This document shows, piece by piece, positions 5,872 to 57,951 of a DNA stretch of 58,038 nt. Positions within the stretch are counted from its first letter, which is position 1; each line of letters starts with the position of its first letter. This stretch comes from Nitrospinaceae bacterium. GTDB taxonomy: Bacteria > Nitrospinota > Nitrospinia > Nitrospinales > VA-1. The translations under genes and the position numbers were made by a program. The notes beneath the pieces were generated by a model that was not told the DNA's origin, did not search any database, and saw only the letters and a list, made by a program, of their open reading frames with translations. The stretch spans positions 1-58,038 of the forward strand of contig JAJDAV010000066.1 of assembly GCA_029261695.1 (NCBI GenBank). Direction: 5' to 3'.

Positions 5872-5882
5872 TTTCTATGAAT

Positions 5883-7672: not shown

Positions 7673-7681
7673 AATTTCCGG

Positions 7682-8800: not shown

Positions 8801-8813
8801 AATCGCCAGTTTC

Positions 8814-9512: not shown

Positions 9513-9535
9513 AGGTTCAATCTCTGTTGGTTGAA

Positions 9536-10543
9536 TCACGAGCCCCAAAGCTCTTTCATCCAAATAAACCGTTCCCACCATTGGCGATTGTTTTTATAAA
9601 ACTCCACCGTTTTTTCTAATCCTTCATCCAAGCCTACTTGTGTTTTCCAATCGAGCAACTCATAGGATTTTTGAACTGATGAAATATGTCTCGAAACCTG
9701 GCCTGGACGATCTTCGGTGTAATTGAGTAAGCTATCCGGTTTCCCCAGCTTTTCTAAAACTTTTCGTCCAATATCAATAACTCGTGTATCGCTGCCTGTT
9801 CCAAGGTTTATAACCTGGCCCAATACCTTTTCTCTTTCCACATGCAAAATTTTATCCAGCGCCCTGCAAGTATCCTCGACATACATCCAGTCACGAGAAC
9901 TATCGCCACCGCCATGAATTGTTAGAGGCTTATCCTGTAACGCGCTTACTATAAAATTGGGAATGGCTTTTTCCAGATGCTGACAGGGACCGTAATTATT
10001 AAAAGGGCGAACAATAACCGCTGGCAAATCGTACGTTTTCATATAGGAATAAATCAATCTATCCGCACCCGCCTTTGCCGCAGCGTAAGGGCTCATCGGA
10101 TTCAATGGGTGCTCTTCATCCATTGGATCAGCTAAAGCTGTCCCATAAACTTCAGAGGATGAAATATGGACAAACAATTCTACAGGATTATTTACCGCAG
10201 CATTGGCAACCACCTGTGTGCCAATAACATCTGTTTCAAAAAATATTGCATTGTCATAAATCGAACGAGTGACGTGAGACTCTGCCGCAAAGTGAACAAC
10301 AATATCTGCCTCAGCAACCAGTTTACCGACAATATCGGGGTGGGTGATGTTGCCGTGGAAAAATTCAAAATGGCTGTTGGATTTTAATGCAGAAGAAATA
10401 TTATCCAGATTTCCTGCATACGTTAGCGCATCAAGAAGAAGAATTTTGTAATCGGGGTAACAGCGGTGAATATAATTGATGAAATTACTGCCAATAAATC
10501 CTGCGCCGCCAGTAATCAATAATTTTTTCTTAAACTCGCTCAT
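9536..10543 (-). CDS. rfbB: dTDP-glucose 4,6-dehydratase (extended SDR)
   Basis: Rossmann motif GGAGFIGSNF and catalytic YAAAKAGAD (YxxxK). ATG 10543 is preceded by GGGAAAG. The track start at 10555 is a TTG four codons upstream. Confidence 0.9.
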   Translation of the reverse strand: MSEFKKKLLITGGAGFIGSNFINYIHRCYPDYKILLLDALTYAGNLDNISSALKSNSHFEFFHGNITHPDIVGKLVAEADIVVHFAAESHVTRSIYDNAIFFETDVIGTQVVANAAVNNPVELFVHISSSEVYGTALADPMDEEHPLNPMSPYAAAKAGADRLIYSYMKTYDLPAVIVRPFNNYGPCQHLEKAIPNFIVSALQDKPLTIHGGGDSSRDWMYVEDTCRALDKILHVEREKVLGQVINLGTGSDTRVIDIGRKVLEKLGKPDSLLNYTEDRPGQVSRHISSVQKSYELLDWKTQVGLDEGLEKTVEFYKNNRQWWERFIWMKELWGS

Positions 10544-10780
10544 TTTCTTTCCCAAGTTGGAACTTTCGCCCCTTATCTATGGATAATTTCAGTCCATCTT
10601 TATCTGGGCTCATTGTCTGTGGCGACTCGCCACCATTATATCAAGGGTCCAATCTTTCTTTACGGGAAAATCGGGGAAATCCTTTAATTATAAGAAGAAA
10701 GAGGCTGTGGAAAGTGTAGGAAAAGGGGTAAAAACAGCCCCAATCGCAAAATTTATAGATTCCAGATAGGAAAGGAAATC

Positions 10781-20360: not shown

Positions 20361-20368
20361 TTGCTTCC

Positions 20369-22108
20369 TTAAAATTGTGCTGACAAGCTAAAAAATGTTC
20401 GTAGATCTTTATTTCCCTCTGCGGCAACATCACGGTTGAGAGGTTTGTCAAATTCCACATATCCCGAAAGATAATCTGTCACATTGAATCTAAAGCCCAA
20501 GCCAATAGAGCTTAGGTCTTGCTTGCTTGAGCCGGTGGAAGTTTCTTGGCGGTTCCACACCGTTCCATAATCAAAAAAAGTGTAGGCTTGGATATCTTTC
20601 ATGAAAGGCTTTTTGATTTGGAAAGCTTTCTGCAATTCAAATTTAAAAGCAACACCATGGTCCCCAGTAATTTCTGATGAATCAAAACCTCTCCCGAACT
20701 GGGCTCCACCCATCCCAAACTCCTCAGAGGCTAATAACTTTTCCAACGAGTATTGCCAGGAAATCGCGCCCAGCAACATCCAAGAAGGAGCCAATTGTTG
20801 TAACCGAAGCGCTTCGCCAGAAAACTTTGTAAAAGCACTTGTGCCTCCTGGCCGAGAAAGCTTAGGCGAGCTCTGTTTACTAGCATCCAAAAAGTCGAAC
20901 CCCTGACTCCAGTTAATGCTTAACAGGTTTACGCCGCGATAATTGTCGACAAAATCGTAGGACAACCCCAAATTAGCGATGCGCAATTTATCTTTTGAAT
21001 CTGTATCGCCTAAAAATTCCGTGGTGGAGTCCCTGGTTGTGAATCCAAAAAATGCATTTAAATTTTCAGCTCTGGAACGGATGAAGGGGTGCGTTGCTCT
21101 AAAGGTGAAAGTCGTGCTATCCCCCTTCACCTCAAAAATCTCAAGATCATCGCCAGGTTCAGATTTACTAACCGCACCAGAAAAGTAAATCTTGGTTCCT
21201 TCAGAAGAAACCGGCATTTCATAAAATCCGCTTAAGAACATTAGCTGATCGGGGTTTTTCGTAACCGCCCCTTGAAAACCTATACGCTCATAAAGACCCA
21301 AAAGAGAATTCGTGCTGGCGTTGCCAGAAAATTGGATGGGACCATTGAATTTCGAGCCTCGATTGTCGAAACCCACCCCTGCATTAATTTTTTTGTTTTC
21401 AAGAATCAAGGTCAGATCAGTGGCTCCCGGCCGAACTTCTGATGGCGTTAAAACCGACTTTACCGATAGCCCCGGCAAATCATCTACAAGAAGTAAATAG
21501 CGTTCGAGGTCTTTAGCGAGCAACGGCTTAGACTTTAAAAGTTTTTTGCGATACCAATTCAGTAGTTTTCTAGGGCCGGTAACCTCACCCTGAACATTGA
21601 CTTTATCCACGAAACCTTCAATGACATCGATGCGAATAACTCCTCTGTCAATCTGTTGAGGAGGGACAACAGCCTTACTCAAAATATAACCGTCGTTCCT
21701 GTACATATTCGTAATGGTCTGAGCAATGTCATATACATGTCCCAAAGAAATTTTCTTACGCATATATTTTCTGAATAACTTAGAAAACCTGCGCTTGCTA
21801 TAAAGAGTCGAGCCTTTGATAACCATTTTCTGCAAAACAAATTTGACCTTACGCAGCTCTTCCGGAAACATGGGCTTGAGATTGTCCTCTCGAACAGGTA
21901 TTTTTTGCGCTTTCGGTTTCGGTTGTTTCTTGAAACGTTCTTCGAATCGGAGGGGGGAGGCCTGCTTATAAGTTTGATCTCGTCCCTGCGGAGAAATTTG
22001 AGCAAAACAGGGCAAAACAAAACAATTCCAGAAAATGAGACTAATAGTCCCTGCTAAACAAATTTTCTTTTTTAAATTAGCTGTAACCAAATCCACCACC
22101 TTATTCAA
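20369..22108 (-). CDS. TpsB outer-membrane transporter (ShlB/FhaC/HecB, Omp85 superfamily)
   Basis: Signal-like N-terminus KKKICLAGTISLIFWNCFVLPCFAQ. POTRA-sized N-terminal region. Loop-6-like FGRGF motif. Beta-barrel C-terminus ending FFSLSAQF. The start is TTG and there is no ATG near the N-terminus, so the exact start is uncertain. Confidence 0.88.
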   Translation of the reverse strand: MNKVVDLVTANLKKKICLAGTISLIFWNCFVLPCFAQISPQGRDQTYKQASPLRFEERFKKQPKPKAQKIPVREDNLKPMFPEELRKVKFVLQKMVIKGSTLYSKRRFSKLFRKYMRKKISLGHVYDIAQTITNMYRNDGYILSKAVVPPQQIDRGVIRIDVIEGFVDKVNVQGEVTGPRKLLNWYRKKLLKSKPLLAKDLERYLLLVDDLPGLSVKSVLTPSEVRPGATDLTLILENKKINAGVGFDNRGSKFNGPIQFSGNASTNSLLGLYERIGFQGAVTKNPDQLMFLSGFYEMPVSSEGTKIYFSGAVSKSEPGDDLEIFEVKGDSTTFTFRATHPFIRSRAENLNAFFGFTTRDSTTEFLGDTDSKDKLRIANLGLSYDFVDNYRGVNLLSINWSQGFDFLDASKQSSPKLSRPGGTSAFTKFSGEALRLQQLAPSWMLLGAISWQYSLEKLLASEEFGMGGAQFGRGFDSSEITGDHGVAFKFELQKAFQIKKPFMKDIQAYTFFDYGTVWNRQETSTGSSKQDLSSIGLGFRFNVTDYLSGYVEFDKPLNRDVAAEGNKDLRTFFSLSAQF

Positions 22109-45923: not shown

Positions 45924-47801
45924 TCAAACTGTAACTTCTCTTATTTGAACTTCGACCTTGAGTTTCTCGGTTCCGCCACCTTTGAATATGGTTCCACTGA
46001 CAGGGGTTGCGTCCCGATAGTTTCTCCCACAAGCAGTCCGCACATGATCCTGCGTTACCATACAGCCATTGGTAGGGTCAAAACCACGCCAACCTAAATA
46101 CGGGAGGTAAACCTCAGCCCAGGCATGAGAAGCATCGGATTGAATTTTGTTCTCATATTCGCCTCCCGTGTAAATATAGCCTACTCGGTATCGTGCCGGA
46201 ATGTTCAGCAAACGACATAGACAAATGAACAGATTTGCAAAATCTTGACACACTCCTTTGCGTAAAGAGAAAACATCAAACGCCGTGGTTTCCAGAAAGG
46301 TAATTCCTGGAACATAAGAAAAGTCTTCATAGATTTTTTTATTTATATCCACAAGACTGTCGATCAAATGGGAATCGTTACGCTCTACAAAGCTCATAGC
46401 ATAATCTGTCATCTGCCTGAGCTGGGTTTCTGGGAGTTCTGGTGGCAACAAATAAGGAAGCATCATTTGACGCTGCCATGGCATCCACACAAGTGGAATT
46501 TGAGAACGGCGCATGACAGGGCTATGATCGTCCGAGGGAACAGCATAGACTTTGACCCGGCTTTTCATTTTAATCATCAGTTGCGGATACTTTTTGGTGA
46601 TGTCGTAATAGATTGAATGATTCGCAAACACATCTTCAAACGGTAACATTTCACCATCAACAGAAAGTTCCAGTGTGGCCTGCACCACTTCCTGAACCGC
46701 ATCTTCCACGGGTTGCAAACGGAAGGTATGAGAACTATGTTCAACCGGGACGGAATATTTATATTCAGTAAGATGAGAAATATCATAATATCTGTAACTT
46801 AATGGAATCCCCTCCATATCATGGGTCAGAGATTTAATGTTTATGATATTTGAAAAGCTTTCACTAATAATTTCTTCCTCTTCATCAACCGCTTCGACAC
46901 TTGTTTGTGATTGCTCGGCCTGTTGACTGACAAATAATTCCGATTCTTCTACTTCTTTCGAAGATGATTCAGTTTCAATAGGCAGTGACTGGGGTTTTAC
47001 CTTTTTTGGAAGGCTGTCCCAGTATACGGCTCCTCTTCGGACAATAATGAGACGTCCAGGCTCCATCGGTTCAAATGGGGTATCATTGAATTCGAAAGAG
47101 GTGACCATGAAAACTGTGCGTAGAGAATCGCGAGGGTCTTCCAGATCAAGACAAACAAGATCAGACTCGAAAAGGGGTGGCTTTTCGGAAGGCAACACTC
47201 GGTGCGTATAAAGCTGGCTTGTTGAATTTTTTCCATGATAAATGGCCATACTTCTACCATCACTGATAACAAAGTCGGCACTTCCAAGGGTATCCAGTTG
47301 TTCCATCCAAGATAAGAACACGCTGCCCTCAACATCGGTCAAAGCTTTTGCCGAAGATTGCATTAGTTGGAATAATAAAAAGCAAAAAGCCAGTTCGGTG
47401 TCGGTTGTGCCAATAGGTTCAAGTATGCCGGTTGGATCAGGATAGAGGTCTCGCAAAGCCACGGGATCCAACTGCCCATTGTGCATGAAAAGCCAATCAT
47501 AGCCGCCAAAACTTCGTCGAAAGGGCTGGCTATCGTGCTGAGTATATTGTCTTCCGACCCCTTTCACCTTGCACATAAACATGGTCGAACGAAAGCTGGT
47601 TCCATCTTTAAGTGTATCCAGCAAAGTCTGACTATCCTTGGCCATTCCGTCCTTCACTATAGAAGCGCCATAGTCATCATTGGGATGCCATCCAAACCCC
47701 CAACCTGGAGTCTTCAGAGCTTTGGCATCTTCTCCTGTGGGGAAAGAAATAGAAGGGGAGCCCATGCAATCAAAATTAAGTGCTAGAATTTCACCGGACA
47801 T
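45924..47801 (-). CDS. Fusion protein: class-II glutamine-amidotransferase-like domain + Bact_transglu_N + transglutaminase-like cysteine protease core
   Basis: N-terminal GATase-II-like motifs PGWGFGW, SQPF, WLFMHNGQL. Middle YDISHLTEYKYSVPVEHSSHTFRLQP. C-terminal Cys-His-Asp core GVCQDFANLF, SHAWAEVYLP, GFDPTNG. Confidence 0.85.
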   Translation of the reverse strand: MSGEILALNFDCMGSPSISFPTGEDAKALKTPGWGFGWHPNDDYGASIVKDGMAKDSQTLLDTLKDGTSFRSTMFMCKVKGVGRQYTQHDSQPFRRSFGGYDWLFMHNGQLDPVALRDLYPDPTGILEPIGTTDTELAFCFLLFQLMQSSAKALTDVEGSVFLSWMEQLDTLGSADFVISDGRSMAIYHGKNSTSQLYTHRVLPSEKPPLFESDLVCLDLEDPRDSLRTVFMVTSFEFNDTPFEPMEPGRLIIVRRGAVYWDSLPKKVKPQSLPIETESSSKEVEESELFVSQQAEQSQTSVEAVDEEEEIISESFSNIINIKSLTHDMEGIPLSYRYYDISHLTEYKYSVPVEHSSHTFRLQPVEDAVQEVVQATLELSVDGEMLPFEDVFANHSIYYDITKKYPQLMIKMKSRVKVYAVPSDDHSPVMRRSQIPLVWMPWQRQMMLPYLLPPELPETQLRQMTDYAMSFVERNDSHLIDSLVDINKKIYEDFSYVPGITFLETTAFDVFSLRKGVCQDFANLFICLCRLLNIPARYRVGYIYTGGEYENKIQSDASHAWAEVYLPYLGWRGFDPTNGCMVTQDHVRTACGRNYRDATPVSGTIFKGGGTEKLKVEVQIREVTV

Positions 47802-47864
47802 ATTGGTTTACGTTTCTTTCGTTAATTATATTTAAATAATATATTAATCCCATTCTACTACACC

Positions 47865-47873
47865 TGTTATAAT
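47865..47873 (+). promoter_or_regulatory. Candidate extended -10 element (TGTTATAAT) for the DUF2126 transglutaminase gene
   Basis: Matches TGnTATAAT in the 130-nt divergent spacer, 59 nt upstream of ATG 47932. No clear -35. Confidence 0.3.
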
Positions 47874-47931
47874 TCTTGAGCAACAAAAAAAAACACTTCA
47901 ATCAATCAACACAATTTCAACAGGGTGAATA

Positions 47932-50900
47932 ATGACTGTAAGGGTTTCCCTTCATCACTTGACAAGTTACACCTATGAACGAATGATCAATCTTGGGCCA
48001 CAGACCATTCGTCTGCGTCCAGCTCCACATACTCGCGCAACAGTTCCTTCCTACTCTTTAAAAATTTTACCAGATAAATATTTCATAAACTGGCAACAAG
48101 ACCCTTTTGGCAATCATCTTGCGCGCCTGGTCTTTCCAGAAAAAACCAAGACATTTCAGGTCGAAGTGAATTTGATCAGTGAAATAAGTGTTTTCAATCC
48201 ATTTGATTTTTTTCTTGAAGAAAGTGCTACCGAATTTCCCTTCAAATATGAACCTTGGCTTGCCGAGGAACTGGCCCCTTACCTTGAAATAAAAGAAAAG
48301 GGTCCTCTTCTACAGAAATTTTTGCAAGAATTCCCTGACAAGAAACAAGCCACAAATGATTTTCTAGTTTCAATCAATGGCGCCGTCAATCAAGCCCTTA
48401 ATTATATTATTCGTCTTGATCCGGGTGTTCAAACTTGTGAAGAAACTTTAAAGCTGAAACGTGGTTCTTGCCGAGATATGTCCTGGTTGTTATGCCAGAT
48501 ACTCCGCCACATGGGGCTAGCAACCCGATTTGCCTCAGGTTACCTGATTCAACTGAAACTGGATCAAGAATCCCTCGATGGGCCCTCTGGAGTTGCAGAA
48601 GATTGCACCGATCTTCATGCGTGGACCGAAGTTTATCTTCCCGGTGCAGGCTGGATAGGCCTTGACCCGACTTCCGGTTTACTAACCGGAGAGGGACACA
48701 TCCCACTTTGTTGCACACCCAGTCCTTCAAGTGCTGCACCCATATCCGGGGCGTTGGAACCTTGCGAATCAAAATTACATCATGAAATGACAGTTACTCG
48801 CATTTACGAAGACCGACGAGTTTCAAAACCTTTCAGTGAGAACGAATGGGGAGAAATCGATCTTCTTGGAGAAAAGGTGGATGGCGATTTAAATAAAATG
48901 GGGATCAAATTGACCATGGGTGGAGAGCCTACATTTGTTTCCATCGACGATAGAGAAAGTGAAGAGTGGAAAACTGCCGCCTTCGGTCCTAAAAAGAAAG
49001 GCCTCGGTAACGAGCTATTACTCCGGATGAAACGCCGTTTTGCTCCCGGTGCACTCCAGCATTATGCACAGGGTAAATGGTATCCTGGAGAACTTCTTCC
49101 ACGCTGGTCACTGGGTTGTTACTGGAGAAAAGATCGTGAGCCTATCTGGAAGGACGGAACACTTTTGGCCGATATCGAGAAAAGCCAGGGGCACGACATT
49201 GAAACTGCAAAACAGTTCACCCATGAATTCTCCAAAGCATTAGGAATTTCAACTCAGTTTGTCATGCCCGCGCATGAGGACTCTCCTTATTATCTTTGGC
49301 AGGAACAAAAACTACCTGTTGAAGGTGAGATTCTCAAGGCAGACCTTTATGAAAAAACCGAGCGCCAACGGTTACAAAAATTGCTCGAAAAAAACTTGAA
49401 CGACCCCATCGGCTTTGTTCTTCCCATTCATTTCTCTACGGTTGAAAACCGTTGGATCAGCAACCGATGGAAATTTCGCACCGAACATTTAATTCTGATT
49501 CCGGGAGATTCTCCTGTTGGGTTGCGTCTGCCTCTAAACAGCCTTCCTTATAATGCGGAAAAAGTTCGTGAATTACAAAGCGAGCCCAGTCACTTTCAGA
49601 ATAAGGATCAACTCCCCGCATGGAGCGCATTACAAAAAACCATCCAACAGAATATGAAGGCGAAGCCCGATCATTCTGGGCATCCAACCGAAGGTTTGAT
49701 CCGTACATCGATTTGCGTGGAAGTGCGTAACGGGACATTACATATTTTTCTTCCACCTATCAAATATTTGGATCAGTTTCTTGATTTGACGGCAACCATT
49801 GAAGCCGTTGCAAGCAAGCTGAAAACCCCAGTTGTGCTGGAAGGTTATGACCCTCCAAATGATTCCAGGATTCAGCACTTCAAAATAACTCCAGATCCAG
49901 GCGTGCTAGAGGTCAACGTTCATCCAGCAAAAAGCTGGCGGGAGTTGGTTGAGATCACCCAAACGGTTTTCGAAGAAGCTCGTCAAACTCGACTTTCATC
50001 AGATAAATTTCTTTTGGATGGTCGCCGCATCGGCACGGGTGGCGGAAATCATATTGTAATTGGTGGCCCCACTCCTCCTGAAAGTCCATTTTTATTACGC
50101 CCAGACCTTTTACGCAGCATGTTGTCTTTCTGGCAAAATCATCCTTCACTGTCTTATTTGTTTTCTTCGATCTTCATCGGTCCGACAAGCCAATCGCCAA
50201 GAATTGACGAAGCGCGAATGGATTCACTGTATGCACTTGAAATTGCCTTTCAGAAAATTCCAAAAGGGGAAACGACTCCACCGTGGTTGGTAGATCGCCT
50301 GTTGCGAAATGTTCTAGTGGATATGACAGGCAATACCCACCGCACCGAAATTTGTATCGACAAATTGTATAGCCCTGATGGCGAACGCGGACGACTGGGT
50401 CTTGTGGAACTGCGTGGTTTTGAAATGACCCCTCATCCACAAATGAATTTATTGCAGGCACTTTTGATACGAACCTGTGTAGCTCATTTCAGTAAGAATC
50501 CTTATATGGCGAATCTGGTTCGTTGGGGAACACAACTGCATGACCGTTTTATGTTGCCGCATTTTGTCTGGGAAGATTTTAAGAATATCATTCGCGAATT
50601 ACAACTGGGAGGCTACCCTCTTCAACTTGATTGGTTTCGTCCTTCTTTGGAGTTTCGATTTCCAAAATACGGTTCATTGCAAATTGGACAAATCAATATG
50701 GAACTGCGCATGGCCCTTGAACCCTGGACCGTGTTAGGTGAAGAAATGTATATGGGAACAGTGAGCCGTTCTGTAGATGCTTCCATCGAACGTCTGCAGG
50801 TCAAGGTAGAAGGGCTAAAGGAAACTCAACAGATAGTAACTTGTAATGGCAGACGGATTCCGATGAAGCCAACATCAGAAAATGGCGTGTTTGTCGGTGG

Positions 50901-51204
50901 TGTGCGTTTCAAAGCCTGGGCGCCTCCGTCCAGTCTTCTTGCTACAGTGCCCGTGCATGCGCCTCTTATATTTGACATTCTTGACATCCGGCATGAACGT
51001 TCGGTCGGAGGTTGCACCTACCATGTAAGCCATCCTGGCGGCAGAAGTTATGATATTTTTCCAGTAAACGAAAATGAGGCGGAAGGAAGAAGGTTGTCAC
51101 GATTTGAACCAATGGGACACTTCAAGGAAAAAATGAAAATCCCGCCTATCGAAGAGAATCCAGATTTCCCATTTACTCTGGATCTATGTCGAGATAATTT
51201 TTGA
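47932..51204 (+). CDS. Transglutaminase-family protein with a large DUF2126 (putative amidoligase) C-terminal region, 1090 aa
   Basis: Bact_transglu_N start MTVRVSLHHLTSYTYERMINLGPQTIRLRP. Core GSCRDMSWLL, DLHAWTEVYLPGAGW, GLDPTSG. About 800 aa follow, with the typical TMGGEPTF and GTGGGNH segments. Confidence 0.88.
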   Translation: MTVRVSLHHLTSYTYERMINLGPQTIRLRPAPHTRATVPSYSLKILPDKYFINWQQDPFGNHLARLVFPEKTKTFQVEVNLISEISVFNPFDFFLEESATEFPFKYEPWLAEELAPYLEIKEKGPLLQKFLQEFPDKKQATNDFLVSINGAVNQALNYIIRLDPGVQTCEETLKLKRGSCRDMSWLLCQILRHMGLATRFASGYLIQLKLDQESLDGPSGVAEDCTDLHAWTEVYLPGAGWIGLDPTSGLLTGEGHIPLCCTPSPSSAAPISGALEPCESKLHHEMTVTRIYEDRRVSKPFSENEWGEIDLLGEKVDGDLNKMGIKLTMGGEPTFVSIDDRESEEWKTAAFGPKKKGLGNELLLRMKRRFAPGALQHYAQGKWYPGELLPRWSLGCYWRKDREPIWKDGTLLADIEKSQGHDIETAKQFTHEFSKALGISTQFVMPAHEDSPYYLWQEQKLPVEGEILKADLYEKTERQRLQKLLEKNLNDPIGFVLPIHFSTVENRWISNRWKFRTEHLILIPGDSPVGLRLPLNSLPYNAEKVRELQSEPSHFQNKDQLPAWSALQKTIQQNMKAKPDHSGHPTEGLIRTSICVEVRNGTLHIFLPPIKYLDQFLDLTATIEAVASKLKTPVVLEGYDPPNDSRIQHFKITPDPGVLEVNVHPAKSWRELVEITQTVFEEARQTRLSSDKFLLDGRRIGTGGGNHIVIGGPTPPESPFLLRPDLLRSMLSFWQNHPSLSYLFSSIFIGPTSQSPRIDEARMDSLYALEIAFQKIPKGETTPPWLVDRLLRNVLVDMTGNTHRTEICIDKLYSPDGERGRLGLVELRGFEMTPHPQMNLLQALLIRTCVAHFSKNPYMANLVRWGTQLHDRFMLPHFVWEDFKNIIRELQLGGYPLQLDWFRPSLEFRFPKYGSLQIGQINMELRMALEPWTVLGEEMYMGTVSRSVDASIERLQVKVEGLKETQQIVTCNGRRIPMKPTSENGVFVGGVRFKAWAPPSSLLATVPVHAPLIFDILDIRHERSVGGCTYHVSHPGGRSYDIFPVNENEAEGRRLSRFEPMGHFKEKMKIPPIEENPDFPFTLDLCRDNF

Positions 51205-51215
51205 TTGAGCTTTTT

Positions 51216-52217
51216 CTATTGGTATTGACTCTGATATTGAGTTCCGTAGCGATTATTGTCTGTCATCTGTTTGACTGCGAAAAAGTTTTCATGAACCGCT
51301 TCCCCCAAACTGTTCAAGTCAGTTTGAATTCCATCGAGAAATTGGTGTAAGCCGATAGACCTGACTTCATCCACACTGGAGTAATTAAGCTTTCCAGAAA
51401 GTTTTCCAAACTGCCTCTCCATCTCATTGTTGAATGAACCCATTGGCGTTCCCATGATTCTAGATAAGGACTGCTCTGCATGGTTGACGCAATACAGAAT
51501 CGAACGGGGAAATTCACGGTCAAAAACCAGAAACTCAATAATATTTTCAGGGGTAATCAGGTTGAACTTTTTTCTGTACATTTCAAAGGAACTTGTGGAT
51601 TTTAAAAGAGCCGACCACTGAACACTGTCCATCGAAGAACCCACATAATCAATCCTAGGGAGGATGATAAAATATTTTACATCGAGAATGCGGGAGGTTT
51701 TATCAGCTCTTTCCAAAAATCTACCTAACTCAGCAAAATGCCAGCCTTCACCACGAGACATGGTTGTATAAGCAATACCCATCATCAAGTGGCTTGTCAT
51801 TTTTATATTAGAATAAAATTTATGCGGGTCCTTAAAGGCACTTAAACTATTACCCATACCTGCCACTTCGAGATAAAGTTTATTGATCATCTCCCAGAAT
51901 TCTGAGGGGATTACTTCTCTAATCGATCTCGCATTTTCACGCGCCGCAGTAAGGCAGGATTTAATGGAATGGGCATAGGCTCCATCGAAGGTATGAAAAA
52001 ACATTACGTTTTCTCTAGTATGAGAACCCAGTTTTTCATAAAAGTACTCACCATCCCCCGTAATATCTACCAGCGGTTTCCAAGCATCCGGGTCATCTCT
52101 TAATGAAGGCATATCCAGAATCATATGCAACTGGGTTTCAATCAGTCGTGCAATATTCTCCGCCCGTTCCAGGTAACAGTTCATCCAGAAAATTGAGTTT
52201 GCAACTCGGCTTAGCAT
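51216..52217 (-). CDS. Alpha-E domain protein (DUF403)
   Basis: N-terminus MLSRVANSIFWMNCYLERAENIARLIE is typical of alpha-E proteins. Located directly downstream of the circularly permuted ATP-grasp gene. Confidence 0.85.
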   Translation of the reverse strand: MLSRVANSIFWMNCYLERAENIARLIETQLHMILDMPSLRDDPDAWKPLVDITGDGEYFYEKLGSHTRENVMFFHTFDGAYAHSIKSCLTAARENARSIREVIPSEFWEMINKLYLEVAGMGNSLSAFKDPHKFYSNIKMTSHLMMGIAYTTMSRGEGWHFAELGRFLERADKTSRILDVKYFIILPRIDYVGSSMDSVQWSALLKSTSSFEMYRKKFNLITPENIIEFLVFDREFPRSILYCVNHAEQSLSRIMGTPMGSFNNEMERQFGKLSGKLNYSSVDEVRSIGLHQFLDGIQTDLNSLGEAVHENFFAVKQMTDNNRYGTQYQSQYQ

Positions 52218-52238
52218 AGTTTCATACCTGTTCAGATA

Positions 52239-53729
52239 CTAAATTGGATCTTCTTCCAGAACCCAAGTGTCCTTACTTCCACCCCCTTGGGATGAATTAA
52301 CTACCAAAGAGTTTTTTTCCAAGGCCACCCGAGTCAAGCCACCGGGGAGCACTTGAATTTCTTCACCATACAAAACATAAGGGCGAAGGTCGATATGCCG
52401 ACCTTCAAAATGATCTTTTACAACCACGGGAACACGGGAAAGCTGAACCACAGGTTGACCAATATAATTGCGGGGTTCTCTTTTGATATTTTCAATCATC
52501 TCTAGTTGCTGCTTTTTGGTTGAAAAAGGACCGATTAACATTCCATACCCTCCAGAACCATGGGTAGTTTTGACAACAAAGTTTGCAATGTTGTCGATAA
52601 CATGTTGGCGTTCTTTCTCCACCTCACACACAAAGGTCGGGACATTGGGAAGTATCGCATCTTCACCTGTGTAATATTTGACAATTTCCGGCACAAATGA
52701 ATAAATCGCCTTGTCATCTGCAATGCCAGCTCCCGGCGCATTGGCTAATGCCACTTTCCCTGCGCGATAAGAATTCATTATCCCCGGCACTCCAAGCAAT
52801 GAATCCGGATTGAAAACGGTCGGGTCCAGATATTCGTCATCAATTCTTCTATATATGGCATCTACTTTTTCAAAACCCTTTGTCGTTCTCATATAAACAA
52901 AATCATCCATGACAACGAGGTCCTGTCCCTCAACCAACTCCTCGCCCATTTGTTGAGCCAGGAACGAGTGTTCGAAATATGCCGAATTATGAATCCCCGG
53001 AGTGAGGATAACAATGTTGGGATTCATCACAGATTCAGGAATCAGATTGCGAAGTGTGTCAGAAAGGCGGCTGGCGTAATCATCGACCGGTCGAATCGGC
53101 AAAGCCTCAAAAACAACGGGGAGGGTTCGCTTCATAACACTTCGGTTGCCTAGTACATAGGAGACTCCAGAAGGGCAGCGCAAGTTATCCTCTAGTACAA
53201 AGAAATCCCCTTTCTCATCTCTGACCAAATCGATTCCACTAATATGACACCAGACACCTTTCGGTGGTTTTAATCCCTCGCATTCTTTACGGTAGGCCAC
53301 AGAGGAAAGGATGATTTCCTTAGATATCACACCATCCTTAATTATCTTTTGATCATTATAAACATCATCGATAAATTTGTTGAGCGCATAAACTCTTTGC
53401 TTCACACCTCGATCAATAAAGTCCCAATCACTGGCTTTGATAATTCGGGGAATGATATCGAAGGGAAAAACCTTTTCCAACCCTTTTTGATCTCCGTAAA
53501 CCCCGAACGTAATCCCCATCTGCATGAATGCTGCTTCAGCCGCTTTCTGCCGATCAGACAATTCTCGTTTAGAAAATGAGTTAATCCGATCCACCAATTT
53601 TTTGGCTTCAGATCTGGCCTGACCGGATGCTTCAAAAAACTCATCGTAGAAATGCTCTGGATTGTAAGAATCGAAATTCATTAAATTTAAAGTTTGAATA
53701 TTAGAGAGCTTACCTTGATAATCTATCAA
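52239..53729 (-). CDS. Circularly permuted ATP-grasp protein, type 2 (COG2308-like)
   Basis: YDEFFEASGQARSEAKKL, GITFGVYGDQKGLEKVFPFDIIPRII, CPSGVSYVLGNR, VVKTTHGSGGYGMLIGP. The start may be the internal ATG at 53681. Confidence 0.88.
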   Translation of the reverse strand: MIDYQGKLSNIQTLNLMNFDSYNPEHFYDEFFEASGQARSEAKKLVDRINSFSKRELSDRQKAAEAAFMQMGITFGVYGDQKGLEKVFPFDIIPRIIKASDWDFIDRGVKQRVYALNKFIDDVYNDQKIIKDGVISKEIILSSVAYRKECEGLKPPKGVWCHISGIDLVRDEKGDFFVLEDNLRCPSGVSYVLGNRSVMKRTLPVVFEALPIRPVDDYASRLSDTLRNLIPESVMNPNIVILTPGIHNSAYFEHSFLAQQMGEELVEGQDLVVMDDFVYMRTTKGFEKVDAIYRRIDDEYLDPTVFNPDSLLGVPGIMNSYRAGKVALANAPGAGIADDKAIYSFVPEIVKYYTGEDAILPNVPTFVCEVEKERQHVIDNIANFVVKTTHGSGGYGMLIGPFSTKKQQLEMIENIKREPRNYIGQPVVQLSRVPVVVKDHFEGRHIDLRPYVLYGEEIQVLPGGLTRVALEKNSLVVNSSQGGGSKDTWVLEEDPI

Positions 53730-53823: not shown

Positions 53824-54738
53824 ATGAACTATAAGAAATTGATTTCGGCAATATCTGATGAACTAAAAGTCCTTGAAGATAAAGGAAAGGTGGCCTCTTA
53901 CATACCAGAGCTAAAAAAAATTGATCCAGGGAAATTTGGACTTCATATTGCCACTGTGGACAATAAAAGCTATGGGCTGGGGGATTACAATGAAAAGTTT
54001 TCGATTCAAAGTATTTCCAAAGTTTTAGCTCTGACATTGGCCTTTAAAATTGATGACAACAAATTATGGGATCGTGTAGACGTGGAGCCTTCTGGCACTC
54101 CTTTCAATTCGATGATTCAATTAGAGTACGAAAAGGGTATCCCTCGCAATCCCCTAATCAATGCAGGCGCTTTGGTTCTTTGCGATGTTTTGGTCAGTCA
54201 TCTAAAAAACCCGAGAGAGGAGTTTATTGAGTTTTTAAGAAATATTTCCGGAGACCCAAACATAGACTACTGCTATAAAATTTTCGAATCAGAAAAACAG
54301 ACAGGCTTTAGAAACGCTGCTCTAATAAATTTAATGAAGTCTTTTGGGAATATAAAAAATAAAATTGAAACGGTATTGGATTTTTATTACCACTTGTGTT
54401 CCATCGAGATGTCTTGCAAAGAATTATCTCAGGTATTTTTATATCTTGCCGCGAAAGGGGTTCATCCTGCCACGAAAATTGAAGTGGTAAGTCCCAGCAA
54501 GTCAAAACGTATCAATGCAATTATGCAACTATGTGGTTTTTATGATGAGGCAGGAGAGTTTGCATTCACAGTCGGATTGCCTGGTAAAAGTGGAGTCGGG
54601 GGAGGGATTGTTGCGATTCACCCAGGAGAATTTAGTATTGCTGTGTGGAGTCCCAGATTAAATAAAAAAGGAAACTCTTATAAAGGGATGAGAATTCTTG
54701 AGTTTTTGACCAGTAAAACAGAATCATCCATTTTTTGA
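53824..54738 (+). CDS. glsA: Glutaminase A
   Basis: Ser-x-x-Lys site FSIQSISKVLALTLA, NPLINAGAL, GLPGKSGVGGGIVAI. 304 aa. Confidence 0.92.
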   Translation: MNYKKLISAISDELKVLEDKGKVASYIPELKKIDPGKFGLHIATVDNKSYGLGDYNEKFSIQSISKVLALTLAFKIDDNKLWDRVDVEPSGTPFNSMIQLEYEKGIPRNPLINAGALVLCDVLVSHLKNPREEFIEFLRNISGDPNIDYCYKIFESEKQTGFRNAALINLMKSFGNIKNKIETVLDFYYHLCSIEMSCKELSQVFLYLAAKGVHPATKIEVVSPSKSKRINAIMQLCGFYDEAGEFAFTVGLPGKSGVGGGIVAIHPGEFSIAVWSPRLNKKGNSYKGMRILEFLTSKTESSIF

Positions 54739-54743
54739 TTATT

Positions 54744-55247
54744 TTAAACAACGTCACTTTTTTTTAAGATACTCACTGTATTTGCAAAAACCAGAGAATT
54801 GGGGATCAAAATTACTTTTTCAGTTCCGTCAAGAGTCGTATACCGTAAATCGATATGACTTACTTTCCCCTCTTGCCCAGAAACTATTATATAGTCTCCA
54901 ATATCAAAAGGGTGATAGACCAAAATCAAGACTCCCACTAGTAAGTTTGAAATAGTATCTTTGAGCGCAAAACCCAGCGCGAACCCCGAAAGCCCCAGGC
55001 CCGCTACAAGAGCTGAGACATTGATCCCCAAAGTTCCTAAAGAGGTCACAACTCCAAAAACCATGATACTGATCTTAGCCACTTCAGAAACCAGTGAACG
55101 AACGGGTTCTTTAAGATTAAATCGGTCTCCTGATTTTTTTAATGCCGCCTGTGCGACTTTAGAAATCACCCAAAAGAAAAACAAGATGACTACTGCCATA
55201 GCAAACTTAGGCAGCCAAAGTAGCAATTGACTTTCAATAGATTGCAT
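54744..55247 (-). CDS. Small MscS-like mechanosensitive channel protein (TM3 plus beta domain only)
   Basis: Pore helix GINVSALVAGLGLSGFALGFALKDTISNLLVGVLIL followed by PFDIGDYIIVSGQEGKVSHIDLRYT. Lacks the C-terminal alpha-beta domain of full-length MscS. Confidence 0.8.
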   Translation of the reverse strand: MQSIESQLLLWLPKFAMAVVILFFFWVISKVAQAALKKSGDRFNLKEPVRSLVSEVAKISIMVFGVVTSLGTLGINVSALVAGLGLSGFALGFALKDTISNLLVGVLILVYHPFDIGDYIIVSGQEGKVSHIDLRYTTLDGTEKVILIPNSLVFANTVSILKKSDVV

Positions 55248-55520: not shown

Positions 55521-56537
55521 TCAATCATAAAAACACTGAAAAATATCCTGTTCTATCATTTCGATGGTTTTATGAACTTTTTTAGAATTGTGAAAACTAG
55601 CTATGTGATATAAAGCATCACCGGCATTAACAAGAGGAAGTTTTAGCTGTCCTATAATAATTCCTTCAAATGGGGCTATGATTTCACCTCTAGGTTTTCC
55701 AAATTGATCTGTAACAACACCCAACAGTTCACCTTCTTTTATTCGTGTTCCTAGATTTTTTAAGGATCGAACTAGTCCGCTGGTAGGCGAACGCATCCAC
55801 TGGCTCTCCCAAGACACAAAAACTTCTTTCCGTTTGGCACTTTTTTTGCTGCTCAGCATGCCAATCGACCGCATGACCGAGAGACAACCTTGAACGCCAA
55901 TTTCAATCACTGATTCATTAAATCGTAAAGCTTCTCCTCCTTCAAAAAGCAGCATCGGTATTTTCTTTCTTCGCGCAGCCTCTCTTAATGATCCATCGCG
56001 TATATTGGAATTTAAAACCACAGGCACTCCGAATTCAAATGCCAGTTGCTTAGTTTCAGAATTACTAATACAAGCACGAATTTGAGGGAGGTTGGTTCTA
56101 TGGATTGCTCCTGTATGCAAATCAATTCCATGAGTAGAATTTTTTACAATTTCTTTCATAAAAACATTGGCTAACCTTGAAGCCAGAGAACCATTTTTTG
56201 AACCTGGGAAAGAACGGTTTAAATCTCTACGATCAGGCAAGTAGCGAGACAGCATATTAAAACCAAAGACATTAACAACGGGAACGGCGATCAAAGTGCC
56301 TTTAAGTTTTTTGAGTGATCTGTTTTTTAGAATTCGGCTTATTATTTCCGTCCCATTAATTTCATCCCCATGAATAGCGGCTGAAATAAATAAAGTTGGG
56401 CCATCCTCTTTGCCGCAGATGACTTCCACAGGAATAGAGAGATCCGTACCATCATAAAGATGAGATACAGCCAGCTGAATTTTTTTACGCTCGCCTTTTT
56501 TAATGGAAACACCGCCTATTTTCAGATCAGTCGCCAT
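55521..56537 (-). CDS. Succinylglutamate desuccinylase/aspartoacylase (AstE/AspA, M14-like) family protein
   Basis: Zinc motif SAAIHGDEINGTE and second His region GIDLHTG. Its start overlaps the rimK stop (TAATG). Confidence 0.85.
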   Translation of the reverse strand: MATDLKIGGVSIKKGERKKIQLAVSHLYDGTDLSIPVEVICGKEDGPTLFISAAIHGDEINGTEIISRILKNRSLKKLKGTLIAVPVVNVFGFNMLSRYLPDRRDLNRSFPGSKNGSLASRLANVFMKEIVKNSTHGIDLHTGAIHRTNLPQIRACISNSETKQLAFEFGVPVVLNSNIRDGSLREAARRKKIPMLLFEGGEALRFNESVIEIGVQGCLSVMRSIGMLSSKKSAKRKEVFVSWESQWMRSPTSGLVRSLKNLGTRIKEGELLGVVTDQFGKPRGEIIAPFEGIIIGQLKLPLVNAGDALYHIASFHNSKKVHKTIEMIEQDIFQCFYD

Positions 56538-57442
56538 TATCCAATTCCTGCTGTTTTCGTGTTTCCACGTTTTGCATCTTTTTCCATGAATTGAATAATT
56601 TTATCAGCAACATCAATTCCGGTCGCCGTCTCGATACCTTCAAGGCCAGGCGATGAGTTGACTTCCATTACCACAGGACCGTGGTTGGAGCGTAATAAAT
56701 CCACGCCTGCCAGGTTTAACCCCATAGCTTTTGCAGAACGCACAGCCGTACTTCTTTCTTCGGGTGTGATCTTGATTACCTTTGCGCTTCCACCTCTATG
56801 AAGATTAGATCGGAACTCACCTTCCTTACCTTGCCTCATCATTGTTGCAACGACTTTATCATCAATGACAAAACAACGGATGTCTGCACCGCCCGCCTCT
56901 TTGATAAACTCCTGAGCCATGATATGGGCGTCGAGTTCCATGAATGCTCCGATGACACTTTCTGCTGCCTTATCCGTTTCAGCCAACACCACTCCCTTGC
57001 CCTGGGTACCTTCAAGTAACTTTATTACGAGAGGCGCTCCTCCAACCATCTTGATAATATCCTCCGTATCATCTGTCGAATGGGCAAAACCTGTAACCGG
57101 CAATCCCACCCCTTTCTTTGCTAAAATCTGCAATGAACGTAACTTATCTCGCGAGCGCGAAATGGCTACCGATTCATTGAGGGGATAAACGCCCATCATT
57201 TCAAACTGTCTTACAATCGCAGTTCCGTAAAAGGTATTTGACGCACCAATACGTGGAATTATTGCATCAAATTCGTTGAGCGTTCGTTCCTTATAGTGAA
57301 CGGATGGTCTATGCGAGGTAATATTTACATAACATTTTAAATAATTAATCACCTCAGCTTTATGCCCCCTTTTCTCGGCGGCTTCGAGCAACCTTTTCGT
57401 TGAATAAAGTTTTGGTCCTAGTGATAAAATTCCAATATTCAT
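56537..57442 (-). CDS. rimK: RimK-type ATP-grasp alpha-L-glutamate ligase
   Basis: MNIGILS...[64 protein letters not shown]. Its start overlaps the upstream stop (ATGA). Confidence 0.93.
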
Positions 57443-57951
57443 TTTTTGCCTTTCTTTATCTTTACCTTATTTACCTTCTTTACCTTATTTACCTTCTTTA
57501 CCTTTTTTATCTTTGTTTTCTTTTCAAGCAAGAAAGACTGGCCTGAATCAACCAGATAGCGATCTTTCAAGGCACTCCTTCCTAATAAAAGGCGAAAACC
57601 CATTAAGTCTCTATTCATGAGAGTCAATTCTATAGAATAAGAGCGTTTACCGATTTTCAGCTTTGTTTTTATTACTGGACGAATACTTATCTCACCATTT
57701 GAGCTTTTTATAGACCGTTCACCCAGGTAATCAGCTTTTGTGTTTATCACAGGGTTTCGTTGTCTTTGAACCGGATGAATGGTGAAAGTTACCTTATTCG
57801 TTCGCTTGTATATTTTAATATTGGAGACATGTAGCGCAGAAGTTTTCGCGCCGGTGTCAACCTTTGCCTTTATTGTTTTTATTTTTAGTTCGGGAAACGA
57901 GACCCACTCCCTCCAGCCTATGGAGTCGAGTTCCTTTATCTTTTTTTTCAT
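57439..57951 (-). CDS. RimK-associated retropepsin-like protease (annotated family name: ATP-dependent zinc protease, DUF785) with a Lys-rich C-terminal tail
   Basis: [31 protein letters not shown] contains the aspartic-protease-like DTGA. Tail [26 protein letters not shown]. Confidence 0.85.
57461..57505 (-). repeat. In-frame tandem repeat: five copies of the 9-nt unit TTTACCTTN (two perfect 18-nt units plus a partial one), encoding (KKV/NKV)n
   Basis: Read directly: tttacctta tttaccttc tttacctta tttaccttc tttaccttt. It lies inside the 3' end of the protease gene, 19 nt upstream of the rimK start codon. Confidence 0.9.

What the first reader, a model, noticed from the sequence alone, without database searches (positions are those of the whole stretch)
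45924..53729. Uncharacterised ATP-grasp / alpha-E / double-transglutaminase amidoligase module
Four adjacent genes form the module. They are a circularly permuted ATP-grasp (52239-53729, minus), an alpha-E protein (51216-52217, minus), a 1090-aa Bact_transglu_N + Cys-His-Asp transglutaminase core + DUF2126 protein (47932-51204, plus), and a second transglutaminase carrying an extra N-terminal GATase-II-like domain (45924-47801, minus). The ATP-grasp/alpha-E/transglutaminase association is a known conserved gene neighbourhood. Comparative genomics predicts that it builds or remodels a peptide- or amide-linked product. To my knowledge no substrate, product or phenotype has been shown. This window holds a complete, compact copy: the convergent gap is 11 nt and the divergent promoter spacer is 130 nt. 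The added amidotransferase-like domain hints at glutamine or ammonia chemistry.
Basis: partly seen in the sequence, partly recalled or inferred. Interest (0 to 1): 0.7.

Follow-up and report, generated by a model that had tools for sequence, protein, structure and literature searches.

The report
Conserved four-gene amide-ligase/transglutaminase cassette
This is a real, complete copy of a widespread bacterial four-gene cassette, first predicted by comparative genomics in 2008-2009, that probably makes and removes amide bonds; its substrate is still unknown, and the extra 'glutamine amidotransferase' domain in this copy has lost its catalytic residue.

Summary
All four ORFs and every claimed domain are confirmed at the stated coordinates. 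The one correction is that the ATP-grasp gene most likely starts at the ATG at 53681, not the TTG at 53729. The window comes from a Nitrospina-like (Nitrospinota) chromosome.

The cassette is an instance of the circularly permuted ATP-grasp / Alpha-E / transglutaminase / transglutaminase-DUF2126 system. Comparative genomics predicted this system in 2008-2009, and it is related to the 'Anbu operon'. I found no paper that defines a substrate, product or phenotype.

The GATase_4-transglutaminase fusion is not rare. It occurs in at least 80 reference species across about ten phyla. In 28 of 42 loci with full flanks it sits next to the same three partner genes.

The domain has the YafJ/EgtC Ntn fold, but the fusion family has replaced the obligatory N-terminal Cys nucleophile with Ser or Thr. 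In the window's Nitrospina clade that position is Gly, so there is no nucleophile. The pocket motifs stay invariant and the domain shows no relaxed constraint, so it is probably a non-catalytic binding module.

Both transglutaminase triads, the ATP-grasp and Alpha-E are fully conserved. The neighbouring glutaminase and RimK operon are not conserved partners.

Verdict: a genuine but previously predicted system and a new member of a known kind. Interest is moderate.

The parts
45924..47801 (-). P1, 625 aa: Ntn-like (GATase_4/YafJ-type) domain, disordered linker, Bact_transglu_N domain and transglutaminase core
   Evidence: Pfam. AF2 model with pLDDT 71. Foldseek matches 3ISR (E 2e-16), 1TE5 (E 4e-14) and EgtC (E 2e-9). 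At least 120 clusters share the same architecture.
47007..47801 (-). Ntn-like domain of P1 (aa 1-265). Gly3 occupies the position of the Cys nucleophile. The HNG (107-109), TDSE (133-136) and QPF (92-94) motifs are retained.
46797..47000 (-). Low-complexity, predicted-disordered Q/E/S-rich linker of P1 (aa ~268-335)
   Evidence: pLDDT is below 50 over residues 268-318. This is the least conserved segment.
45927..46796 (-). Transglutaminase-like unit of P1 (Bact_transglu_N aa 336-419 and core aa ~455-625) with the invariant triad C518/H559/D575
47802..47931 (.). 130-nt AT-rich divergent spacer between P1 and P2. It presumably holds the promoters, but none was demonstrated.
   Evidence: Sequence. 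The sigma-70 scan is not above chance. There is no sigma-54 site here.
47932..51204 (+). P2, 1090 aa. The N-terminal part is a transglutaminase-like unit with triad C180/H229/D245. The C-terminal part is DUF2126 (aa 276-1085, nt 48757-51186), a predicted carboxylate-amine ligase of the GS/GCS2 type.
   Evidence: Pfam, 1220 bits. About 60% identity across phyla. Invariant triad. AF2 model with pLDDT 73. Foldseek matches 3ISR (E 5e-8), with weak matches to YbdK/GCS2 and glutamine synthetases (E ~0.01-0.1, prob 0.9-0.99). Iyer et al. 2008 described the family using Rv2566 as the example.
51216..52217 (-). P3, Alpha-E protein, 333 aa, with both conserved E-R pairs (E17-R18 and E169-R170)
   Evidence: Pfam 5.5e-95. 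All 29 family-conserved columns are kept. No solved homologue by sequence.
52239..53681 (-). P4, circularly permuted ATP-grasp ligase, 480 aa from the revised ATG start. The ORF as listed runs to the TTG at 53729.
   Evidence: Pfam. PDB 3N6X at 3e-155. All 130 family-conserved columns are kept, and the N-terminal extension is unique to the window. Sequence.

Best explanation
The four genes form one functional cassette of the system that comparative genomics predicted in 2008-2009: circularly permuted ATP-grasp, Alpha-E, transglutaminase-like peptidase, Ntn-fold protein, and a transglutaminase fused to a GS/GCS2-like ligase.

Proposed mechanism (inferred, not shown):
- Two ATP-dependent ligases, the ATP-grasp working with its Alpha-E partner and the DUF2126 carboxylate-amine ligase, activate a carboxylate as an acyl-phosphate. 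This is most likely a Glu gamma- or alpha-carboxylate.
- They then join it to an amine. The result is a gamma-glutamyl-type amide or short peptide link on a cytoplasmic substrate encoded elsewhere.
- The two Cys-His-Asp transglutaminase-like domains act through a thioester intermediate to hydrolyse or transfer that link. Each ligase activity is therefore paired with a reversing or trimming activity.
- The N-terminal domain of P1 is a YafJ/EgtC-type Ntn fold that cannot be a glutamine amidotransferase. In this clade it has no nucleophile, and it most likely only binds the gamma-glutamyl/Gln-like moiety and presents it to the fused transglutaminase.

Shown here: gene content, intact catalytic residues, conserved linkage, loss of the nucleophile, and continued constraint on the Ntn-like domain.
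Inferred: the chemistry, the direction of the reactions and the nature of the substrate.
For: - Domains and triads are intact.
- The ATP-grasp is 520 bits to PDB 3N6X and keeps 130/130 conserved columns. Alpha-E keeps 29/29.
- P2's DUF2126 part gives repeated but weak Foldseek matches to YbdK/GCS2, glutamine synthetases and gamma-glutamylmethylamide synthetase. Iyer et al. 2008 place this family in the carboxylate-amine ligase superfamily.
- P1's N-terminal half matches 1TE5 and the gamma-glutamyl-amide hydrolase EgtC.
- Linkage is conserved: 28 of 42 fully flanked loci have all four genes and 36 of 42 have at least one partner, across Nitrospinota, Alpha- and Gammaproteobacteria, Myxococcota, Planctomycetota, Melainabacteria and Chlamydiae. 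No fifth gene family recurs.
- Nothing outside the four genes is syntenic with the closest relative, so the cassette behaves as a unit.
- Nucleophile data: 0/120 fusion homologues have Cys, and the window's clade has Gly. Cys2 of standalone relatives aligns to Gly3. By species the counts are Ser 36, Thr 4, Gly 4.
- The Ntn-like domain is still constrained in the Gly clade. The Ntn/TG-core identity ratio is 0.80 there against 0.73 in the Ser/Thr clade, and the HNG, TDSE and QPF motifs are kept.
- Literature: the Anbu-operon ATP-grasp releases phosphate from ATP. Aravind's group predicts that the transglutaminase-like domains reverse peptide tags added by the ATP-grasp.
Against: - No substrate, product or phenotype is known for any member.
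- The DUF2126-to-GS/GCS2 fold match is weak (E ~0.01, TM 0.3-0.36) and rests on a medium-confidence model.
- Both structure models are only moderate (pLDDT 71 and 73).
- Transglutaminase-fold enzymes can hydrolyse, transamidate or merely bind, and sequence cannot tell which.
- Pull-downs in Yersinia found no stable complex among the Anbu-operon proteins.
- A binding role for the Gly-type Ntn domain is inferred only from conservation.
- The Ser/Thr in other lineages may not be a nucleophile either.
Confidence: 0.6

Rival explanations
1. Small-molecule version. The cassette makes and recycles a gamma-glutamyl-amine or short-peptide metabolite, for example a nitrogen or polyamine reserve. It would work like glutathionylspermidine synthetase/amidase, where a papain-like amidase is fused to a ligase in one protein. 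It would not tag proteins.
For: - P2 has the same amidase-plus-ligase logic.
- GS/GCS2-type and EgtC/YafJ-type relatives mostly act on small gamma-glutamyl compounds.
- The ATP-grasp's closest solved homologue was deposited as 'putative glutathionylspermidine synthase'.
- Conservation is very high across phyla, about 60% identity over 1090 aa and 480 aa, which suits a universal substrate.
- There is no co-conserved substrate gene, and the intergenic gaps leave no room for a tag gene.
- The related Anbu operon is reported to be induced under nitrogen limitation in P. putida.
Against: - Transglutaminase-like domains with Bact_transglu_N, and the proteasome-like Anbu of sister operons, suggest polypeptide substrates.
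- The large Alpha-E partner has no precedent in small-molecule ligases.
- No metabolite has been linked to the system.
- The M. tuberculosis proteins Rv2567 and Rv2411c, which from my own knowledge are ATP-grasp/Alpha-E proteins, did not make GABA-trehalose. Only that one product was tested.
Confidence: 0.3
2. The GATase-like domain of P1 hydrolyses glutamine and feeds ammonia, or handles glutamine amide nitrogen, for the ligases or the transglutaminase.
For: - The Pfam GATase_4 hit is 1e-37.
- The fold matches class-II amidotransferase domains of GFAT, PurF and GlmS.
- The Asn-Gly and Asp-containing motifs are conserved.
- A glutaminase gene lies next door.
Against: - The obligatory N-terminal Cys is replaced by Gly. 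The clade's N-termini are M-[F/S/Y/L/P]-G-E, so no conserved N-terminal nucleophile can be exposed.
- The fused partner is a transglutaminase, not an ammonia-accepting synthase domain.
- The glutaminase neighbour is present in only 2 of 80 related loci.
Confidence: 0.04
3. The four genes are unrelated neighbours, and the module is an annotation coincidence.
For: - One gene (P2) is on the opposite strand.
- P2's orientation and divergence differ from the flanking genes in close relatives.
Against: - All four genes co-occur in 28 of 42 fully flanked loci from many phyla.
- The surrounding genes are not conserved.
Confidence: 0.02

Closest known systems
Predicted peptide-synthesis/modification ('peptide-tagging') system with CP ATP-grasp, Alpha-E, transglutaminase, Ntn-hydrolase and a transglutaminase fused to a CP COOH-NH2 ligase (Iyer, Abhiman, Burroughs & Aravind 2009, Mol Biosyst 5:1636). 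The paper is not held in the library. I know it from citing papers and from my memory of its abstract and of the Pfam family descriptions.
   Same: All component families are present, adjacent and intact. The linkage is conserved across phyla.
   Different: The Ntn-fold component is fused to the N-terminus of the small transglutaminase. It is of the YafJ/EgtC (GATase_4) type and has no nucleophile in this clade. I could not check whether the 2009 paper describes this fusion.
Anbu operon: ATP-grasp - Alpha-E - transglutaminase - Anbu (Valas & Bourne 2008; Fuchs et al. 2017; Piasecka et al. 2018)
   Same: The same ATP-grasp, Alpha-E and transglutaminase families are present. The Myxococcota relatives even keep the order ATP-grasp, Alpha-E, transglutaminase. 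The function is equally unknown.
   Different: There is no Anbu (proteasome-beta-like) gene in the window or recurring in the 80 related loci. A DUF2126 gene is present. The only Ntn-fold element is the fused YafJ-like domain.
YafJ/EgtC-type class-II (Ntn) amidotransferases and amidohydrolases (PDB 1TE5, 4ZFJ/K/L)
   Same: The fold matches (TMt 0.78 to 1TE5). The HNG and TDSE motifs are shared.
   Different: The Cys2 nucleophile is replaced by Gly here and by Ser or Thr in most other fusion proteins. The domain is fused to a transglutaminase.
M. tuberculosis Rv2566 (transglutaminase fused to a carboxylate-amine ligase) and its neighbours Rv2567 and Rv2569c
   Same: Rv2566 is the published example of the P2 architecture.
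   Different: Homology of the neighbours to the window's proteins was not tested here. Rv2567 and Rv2411c were negative for GABA-trehalose synthesis. Rv2569c was reported as a secreted 'serine protease' cleaving E-cadherin and was insensitive to Cys-protease inhibitors. That claim cannot be transferred to a cytoplasmic cassette conserved in free-living bacteria.
Glutathionylspermidine synthetase/amidase, and the pupylation enzymes PafA/Dop (functional analogies only)
   Same: Each pairs an ATP-dependent carboxylate-amine ligase with an amidase that reverses the bond. PafA is also GS/GCS2-like.
   Different: The families and folds of the partners differ. No Pup-like tag gene or proteasome is linked here.

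Membership tests
CP ATP-grasp / Alpha-E / transglutaminase system (Iyer 2009 type) | Circularly permuted ATP-grasp gene (PF04174/PF14403) | tested here: met
   Pfam 6e-160 and 3e-140. PDB 3N6X at 3e-155. 130/130 conserved columns kept.
CP ATP-grasp / Alpha-E / transglutaminase system (Iyer 2009 type) | Adjacent Alpha-E gene with the conserved ER motif | tested here: met
   Pfam 5.5e-95. E17-R18 and E169-R170 are conserved. The gene lies 21 nt downstream of the ATP-grasp gene.
CP ATP-grasp / Alpha-E / transglutaminase system (Iyer 2009 type) | Transglutaminase-like protein (Bact_transglu_N plus core) with a Cys-His-Asp triad | tested here: met
   C518/H559/D575 are invariant in 70 sequences. 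Foldseek match to 3ISR, E 2e-16.
CP ATP-grasp / Alpha-E / transglutaminase system (Iyer 2009 type) | Transglutaminase fused N-terminally to a carboxylate-amine (GS/GCS2-like) ligase, i.e. DUF2126 | tested here: met
   Pfam DUF2126, 1220 bits. The GS/GCS2 fold itself is supported only weakly. The circular permutation was not tested.
CP ATP-grasp / Alpha-E / transglutaminase system (Iyer 2009 type) | Catalytically competent Ntn-hydrolase component | tested here: not met
   The Ntn fold is present, but the nucleophile position is Gly in the window and its clade.
CP ATP-grasp / Alpha-E / transglutaminase system (Iyer 2009 type) | Conserved gene linkage across distant genomes | tested here: met
   28 of 42 fully flanked loci have all four genes. 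Partner genes are found in 51-54 of 80 loci overall.
CP ATP-grasp / Alpha-E / transglutaminase system (Iyer 2009 type) | ATP-dependent amide ligation and its reversal | not testable with these tools
   Only ATP hydrolysis by a Yersinia homologue has been reported.
Class-II (Ntn) glutamine amidotransferase, GATase_4/YafJ/EgtC | Ntn alpha-beta-beta-alpha fold | tested here: met
   Foldseek 1TE5 at E 4e-14 and TMt 0.78, and EgtC at E 2e-9. Pfam 1e-37.
Class-II (Ntn) glutamine amidotransferase, GATase_4/YafJ/EgtC | N-terminal Cys nucleophile (Cys2 exposed after Met removal) | tested here: not met
   The window reads M-S-G-E-I-L-A. Standalone relatives read M-C-E-L-L-G with Cys aligned to Gly3. 0 of 120 fusion homologues have Cys.
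Class-II (Ntn) glutamine amidotransferase, GATase_4/YafJ/EgtC | Oxyanion-hole Asn-Gly and the glutamine-binding Asp motif | tested here: inconclusive
   H107-N108-G109 and T133-D134-S135-E136 are conserved and align to HNG and TDSE of 1TE5. Their functional equivalence is inferred from family knowledge, not tested.
Class-II (Ntn) glutamine amidotransferase, GATase_4/YafJ/EgtC | Coupled ammonia-accepting synthase domain or subunit | tested here: not met
   The fused partner is a transglutaminase-like domain. No synthase-type partner recurs in the 80 loci.
Anbu operon | Anbu (proteasome-beta-like) gene in the cluster | tested here: not met
   None of the window's ORFs that were scanned has a proteasome-family hit. 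These are the ORFs of at least 150 aa in 1-42 kb and the nine ORFs flanking the module. No recurrent fifth family appears in the 80 loci.
Pupylation-like tagging (PafA/Dop, Pup, proteasome) | Small tag-protein gene next to the ligase | tested here: not met
   The intergenic gaps inside the cassette are 11, 21 and 130 nt. Iyer 2008 also noted that the Rv2566 family has no Pup-like ORF. Small ORFs in the related loci were not surveyed.
Transglutaminase-like cysteine peptidase superfamily | Papain-like core with Cys-His-Asp | tested here: met
   This holds for both P1 and P2.

The most novel reading that the evidence does not exclude
In the fusion family, a Cys-type YafJ amidotransferase domain switched to a Ser/Thr N-terminal nucleophile. 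Many members carry a short propeptide-like extension (...IT|SD, ...LT|SD, ...QL|TR) that would need autoprocessing, as in proteasome-type Ntn hydrolases. This domain functionally replaces Anbu in the cassette.

In the Nitrospina clade it then became a nucleophile-less 'reader' of the gamma-glutamyl or peptide mark. The cassette would then be a writer (two ligases), reader (pseudo-Ntn) and eraser (transglutaminase) system for a still-undiscovered bacterial protein modification.
Probability: 0.12. Interest if true: 0.75.

Novelty: new member of a known kind. Interest (0 to 1): 0.35.

Why it matters
This cassette and its Anbu-operon relatives are among the more widespread bacterial enzyme systems that still have no known substrate. 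They were flagged in 2008-2009 as a possible peptide-tagging or peptide-synthesis system. Solving the system would define the activity of four large 'unknown function' families: CP ATP-grasp, Alpha-E, DUF2126 and Bact_transglu_N transglutaminases.

This window does not make the question much easier to answer. Nitrospina-like bacteria are hard to grow, and cultured carriers such as Asticcacaulis and Kiloniella are better hosts.

The comparison does yield two concrete, testable points:
- The 'amidotransferase' label on the fusion proteins is misleading, because the domain has no Cys nucleophile.
- Natural Ser/Thr and Gly variants of that domain exist. They could be used to separate catalytic roles from binding roles.

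Tried and rejected
- Glutaminase (53824-54738) and the RimK/RimB-like/AstE-like operon (55521-57951) as part of the module: rejected. Glutaminase occurs in 2 of 80 related loci and the RimK-operon genes in 0 of 80.
- Regulatory signals: the sigma-70 and terminator scans are at chance level. Sigma-54 consensus matches are at chance level and none lies in the cassette's intergenic regions. I make no regulatory claim.
- NCBIfam has no specific model for any of the four proteins. The only hit is a sub-threshold EgtC match.
- Sequence search of PDB finds nothing for Alpha-E or DUF2126.
- The profile alignment to 1TE5 did not reach the N-terminus. The nucleophile alignment was settled instead through standalone homologues.
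- Literature leads that did not define a function: the GABA-trehalose preprint, where Rv2567 and Rv2411c were negative; the membrane-vesicle screen, which concerns a different, membrane-bound inactive transglutaminase; and the Rv2569c 'serine protease' paper.
- Iyer et al. 2009 (PMC3268129) could not be opened, so I could not check whether it already describes the GATase-like fusion.
- A fifth conserved partner, such as Anbu or a tag gene: none was found among ORFs of at least 100 aa.
- Relaxed selection on the nucleophile-less domain: not seen.
- The third homologue search was left unused because it would not have changed the conclusions.

Full report
**1. Observation**

Pfam recovers every claimed domain far above threshold:
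- P1: GATase_4 + Bact_transglu_N + Transglut_core.
- P2: Bact_transglu_N + Transglut_core + DUF2126 (1220 bits).
- P3: Alpha-E (5.5e-95).
- P4: CP_ATPgrasp_2 and CP_ATPgrasp_1 (6e-160 and 3e-140).

The Cys-His-Asp triads are invariant in both transglutaminase domains. In P1 the triad is C518/H559/D575. In P2 it is C180/H229/D245. The 11-nt convergent gap and the 130-nt divergent spacer are correct.

One correction: the TTG at 53729 adds 16 residues that none of 40 homologues has. The ATG at 53681 gives MNFDSYNPEHFYDE... and a 480-aa protein.

**2. Organism and context**

The closest relatives of P1 and P2, at 70-94% identity, come from Nitrospina, Nitrospinaceae and Ca. Nitrohelix metagenome-assembled genomes.

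The rest of the window is ordinary chromosome:
- SMC and NadE.
- A two-partner secretion pair.
- Trigger factor, ClpP, ClpX and Lon.
- A secretin.
- Flagellar genes fliI, fliH, fliG, fliF and flgC.

The exact P1 sequence is on record only on a 7-kb metagenome contig with the same gene order.

**3. The cassette is a conserved unit**

A scan of one genome per species returned 80 loci that encode the full-length fusion. They come from Nitrospinota, Alpha-, Beta- and Gammaproteobacteria (Asticcacaulis, Kiloniella, Algimonas, Legionellales, Coxiellaceae), Myxococcota, Planctomycetota, Melainabacteria, Chlamydiae, Spirochaetes, Actinomycetota and Acidobacteriota.

tblastn with the window's proteins finds Alpha-E in 54 of these loci, the ATP-grasp in 52 and DUF2126 in 51. 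Among the 42 loci with about 10 kb on both sides, 28 have all four genes and 36 have at least one partner.

Clustering all ORFs of at least 100 aa shows no fifth recurrent family. The next cluster occurs in at most 6 loci. The window's glutaminase recurs in 2 of 80 loci, and the RimK, AstE-like and RimB-like genes in none.

Between the window and its closest genomic relative (L001), only the four genes are syntenic. The cassette is therefore self-contained and sits in different genomic contexts.

**4. The 'amidotransferase' domain**

The AF2 model of P1 (pLDDT 71, pTM 0.71) has these parts:
- An N-terminal alpha/beta domain, residues 1-265.
- A disordered Q/E/S-rich linker.
- A beta-sandwich.
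- A transglutaminase core.

Foldseek matches the C-terminal half to the Cytophaga transglutaminase-like cysteine protease 3ISR (E 2e-16). It matches the N-terminal half to the YafJ-type protein 1TE5 (E 4e-14, TMt 0.78), to the gamma-glutamyl-amide hydrolase EgtC (E 2e-9), and to the GATase domains of GFAT, PurF and GlmS. The fold assignment is therefore correct.

Class-II amidotransferases, however, need an N-terminal Cys, and the evidence shows it is missing:
- None of 120 fusion homologues has Cys at that position.
- An exhaustive phmmer search with residues 1-270 found only 537 representatives. The standalone proteins of about 260 aa begin MCELLG..., with Cys2 aligned to the window's Gly3.
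- Among the long fusion proteins that position is Ser, Thr, Pro, Asn, Gly, Ala, Ile or Glu, and Cys in only 1 of 21.
- By species, where the N-terminus could be recovered, the counts are Ser 36, Thr 4 and Gly 4; one further locus gave an apparent Arg that is probably an alignment offset. Gly occurs only in the window's Nitrospina clade. A more distant Nitrospinota genome (L065) has Ser.
- The clade's N-termini read M-[F/S/Y/L/P]-G-E, so no conserved nucleophile can be exposed.

The domain is not decaying. The HNG, TDSE and QPF motifs are conserved in both clades. The ratio of Ntn-domain identity to transglutaminase-core identity is 0.80 in the Gly clade and 0.73 in the Ser/Thr clade.

I conclude that in this window the domain is a constrained, non-catalytic module, probably for ligand binding. 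The hint of glutamine or ammonia chemistry does not hold as catalysis.

**5. The other components**

- P2 is about 60% identical across phyla over 1090 aa. Its model (pLDDT 73) matches 3ISR at the N-terminus.
- In the DUF2126 part the model matches, weakly but repeatedly, YbdK/GCS2 (E 0.012, prob 0.99), glutamine synthetases and gamma-glutamylmethylamide synthetase. This agrees with Iyer et al. 2008, who placed the Rv2566 family in the carboxylate-amine ligase superfamily. A sequential aligner would score a permuted fold poorly, so I treat this as weak support.
- The ATP-grasp is 520 bits to PDB 3N6X and keeps all 130 family-conserved columns. Alpha-E keeps all 29, including both E-R pairs.
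- Neither Alpha-E nor DUF2126 has a solved homologue by sequence.

**6. What is known**

Valas & Bourne 2008 found the COG2308 / COG2307 / COG1305 association with Anbu. Iyer et al. 2009, as quoted by later papers, predicted a peptide-synthesis or peptide-tagging system with the transglutaminase-like domains as reversing peptidases.

Experiments so far show only the following:
- ATP hydrolysis by a Yersinia ATP-grasp.
- No Anbu peptidase activity.
- No stable complexes among the operon proteins.
- Non-essentiality.
- Induction under nitrogen limitation in P. putida.

Later literature added nothing decisive.

**7. Mechanism**

Every catalytic family here centres on carboxylate-amine ligation or on gamma-glutamyl/Gln-type amides. 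These are the ATP-grasp of the glutathione-synthetase/RimK kind, the GS/GCS2-type ligase, the EgtC/YafJ-type fold and the transglutaminase-type thiol enzymes.

My best explanation is an ATP-driven cycle that forms a gamma-glutamyl-type or short-peptide amide on a substrate encoded elsewhere. The two thiol domains then remove or transfer it, and the pseudo-Ntn domain binds the ligand (confidence 0.6 for this general scheme).

Whether the substrate is a protein or a small metabolite is open. I rate the small-metabolite version at about 0.3. A glutamine-amidotransferase role is disfavoured (0.04). Chance adjacency is refuted.

**8. Verdict**

This is a new member of a known but biochemically unsolved kind. 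The fused, nucleophile-less Ntn domain is a detail worth recording, not a new system. Interest 0.35.

Noticed in passing
window 47932-51204 compared with L001 6485-9769 and L003 407-3673: Relative to the three flanking cassette genes, the DUF2126 gene is inverted in the closest Nitrospina relatives (L001, L003), where all four genes are co-directional. It is also far more divergent: about 65-67% nucleotide identity against 80-82% for the flanks, and 62% protein identity against 87-92%. L002 and L065 share the window's orientation. This suggests replacement by a different DUF2126 lineage, not a simple inversion.
   Followed up: partly
window 55521-57951 (-): A second, unrelated glutamate-ligase/peptidase operon with overlapping or abutting genes. 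It comprises a retropepsin-like RimB-type protease (57439-57951), RimK alpha-L-glutamate ligase (56537-57442) and an AstE/AspA-type zinc hydrolase (55521-56537). It is not linked to the cassette in any of the 80 related loci.
   Followed up: partly
window 53824-54738 (+): A glutaminase (GlsA type, NCBIfam 1e-134) is transcribed divergently from the ATP-grasp gene. With RimK nearby this gives a locally glutamate- and glutamine-centred neighbourhood. The adjacency recurs in only 2 of 80 loci (L012, L047).
   Followed up: yes
window 53682-53729 (-): The mechanical ORF start of the ATP-grasp gene (TTG at 53729) is probably wrong. The ATG at 53681 matches the N-terminus of all homologues.
   Followed up: yes
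L006-L080, N-termini of the fusion proteins: Many Ser/Thr-type fusion proteins carry short conserved N-terminal extensions before the putative nucleophile (MSDIT|SD..IPPLT|SD..QQLN|SD..HQL|TR). Others start directly with MSD or MT. This pattern resembles the propeptides of autoprocessing Ntn hydrolases.
   Followed up: partly
window 14748-22108 (-): A two-partner secretion pair: a 1870-aa TPS-domain exoprotein (14748-20360) and its ShlB/FhaC-type transporter (20369-22108).
   Followed up: no
window 2380-5080 (+): A 450-aa protein made almost entirely of LRR_6-type leucine-rich repeats (2380-3732), followed by a GGDEF-PilZ fusion protein (3890-5080).
   Followed up: no
window 5077-10555 (-): A sugar-modification cluster. 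It holds two radical-SAM/SPASM proteins, a family-2 glycosyltransferase, a WbqC-like protein, an NAD-dependent epimerase/dehydratase and a methyltransferase.
   Followed up: no
window 55835-55850 (+): The only perfect match in the window to the sigma-54 consensus TGGCAC-N5-TTGCW lies inside the AstE-like gene on the opposite strand. The overall match count is at chance level.
   Followed up: no
window 54744-55247 (-): A short (167 aa) MscS-type mechanosensitive-channel ORF. It has the TM helices and beta-domain only, and may be a truncated or minimal channel.
   Followed up: no
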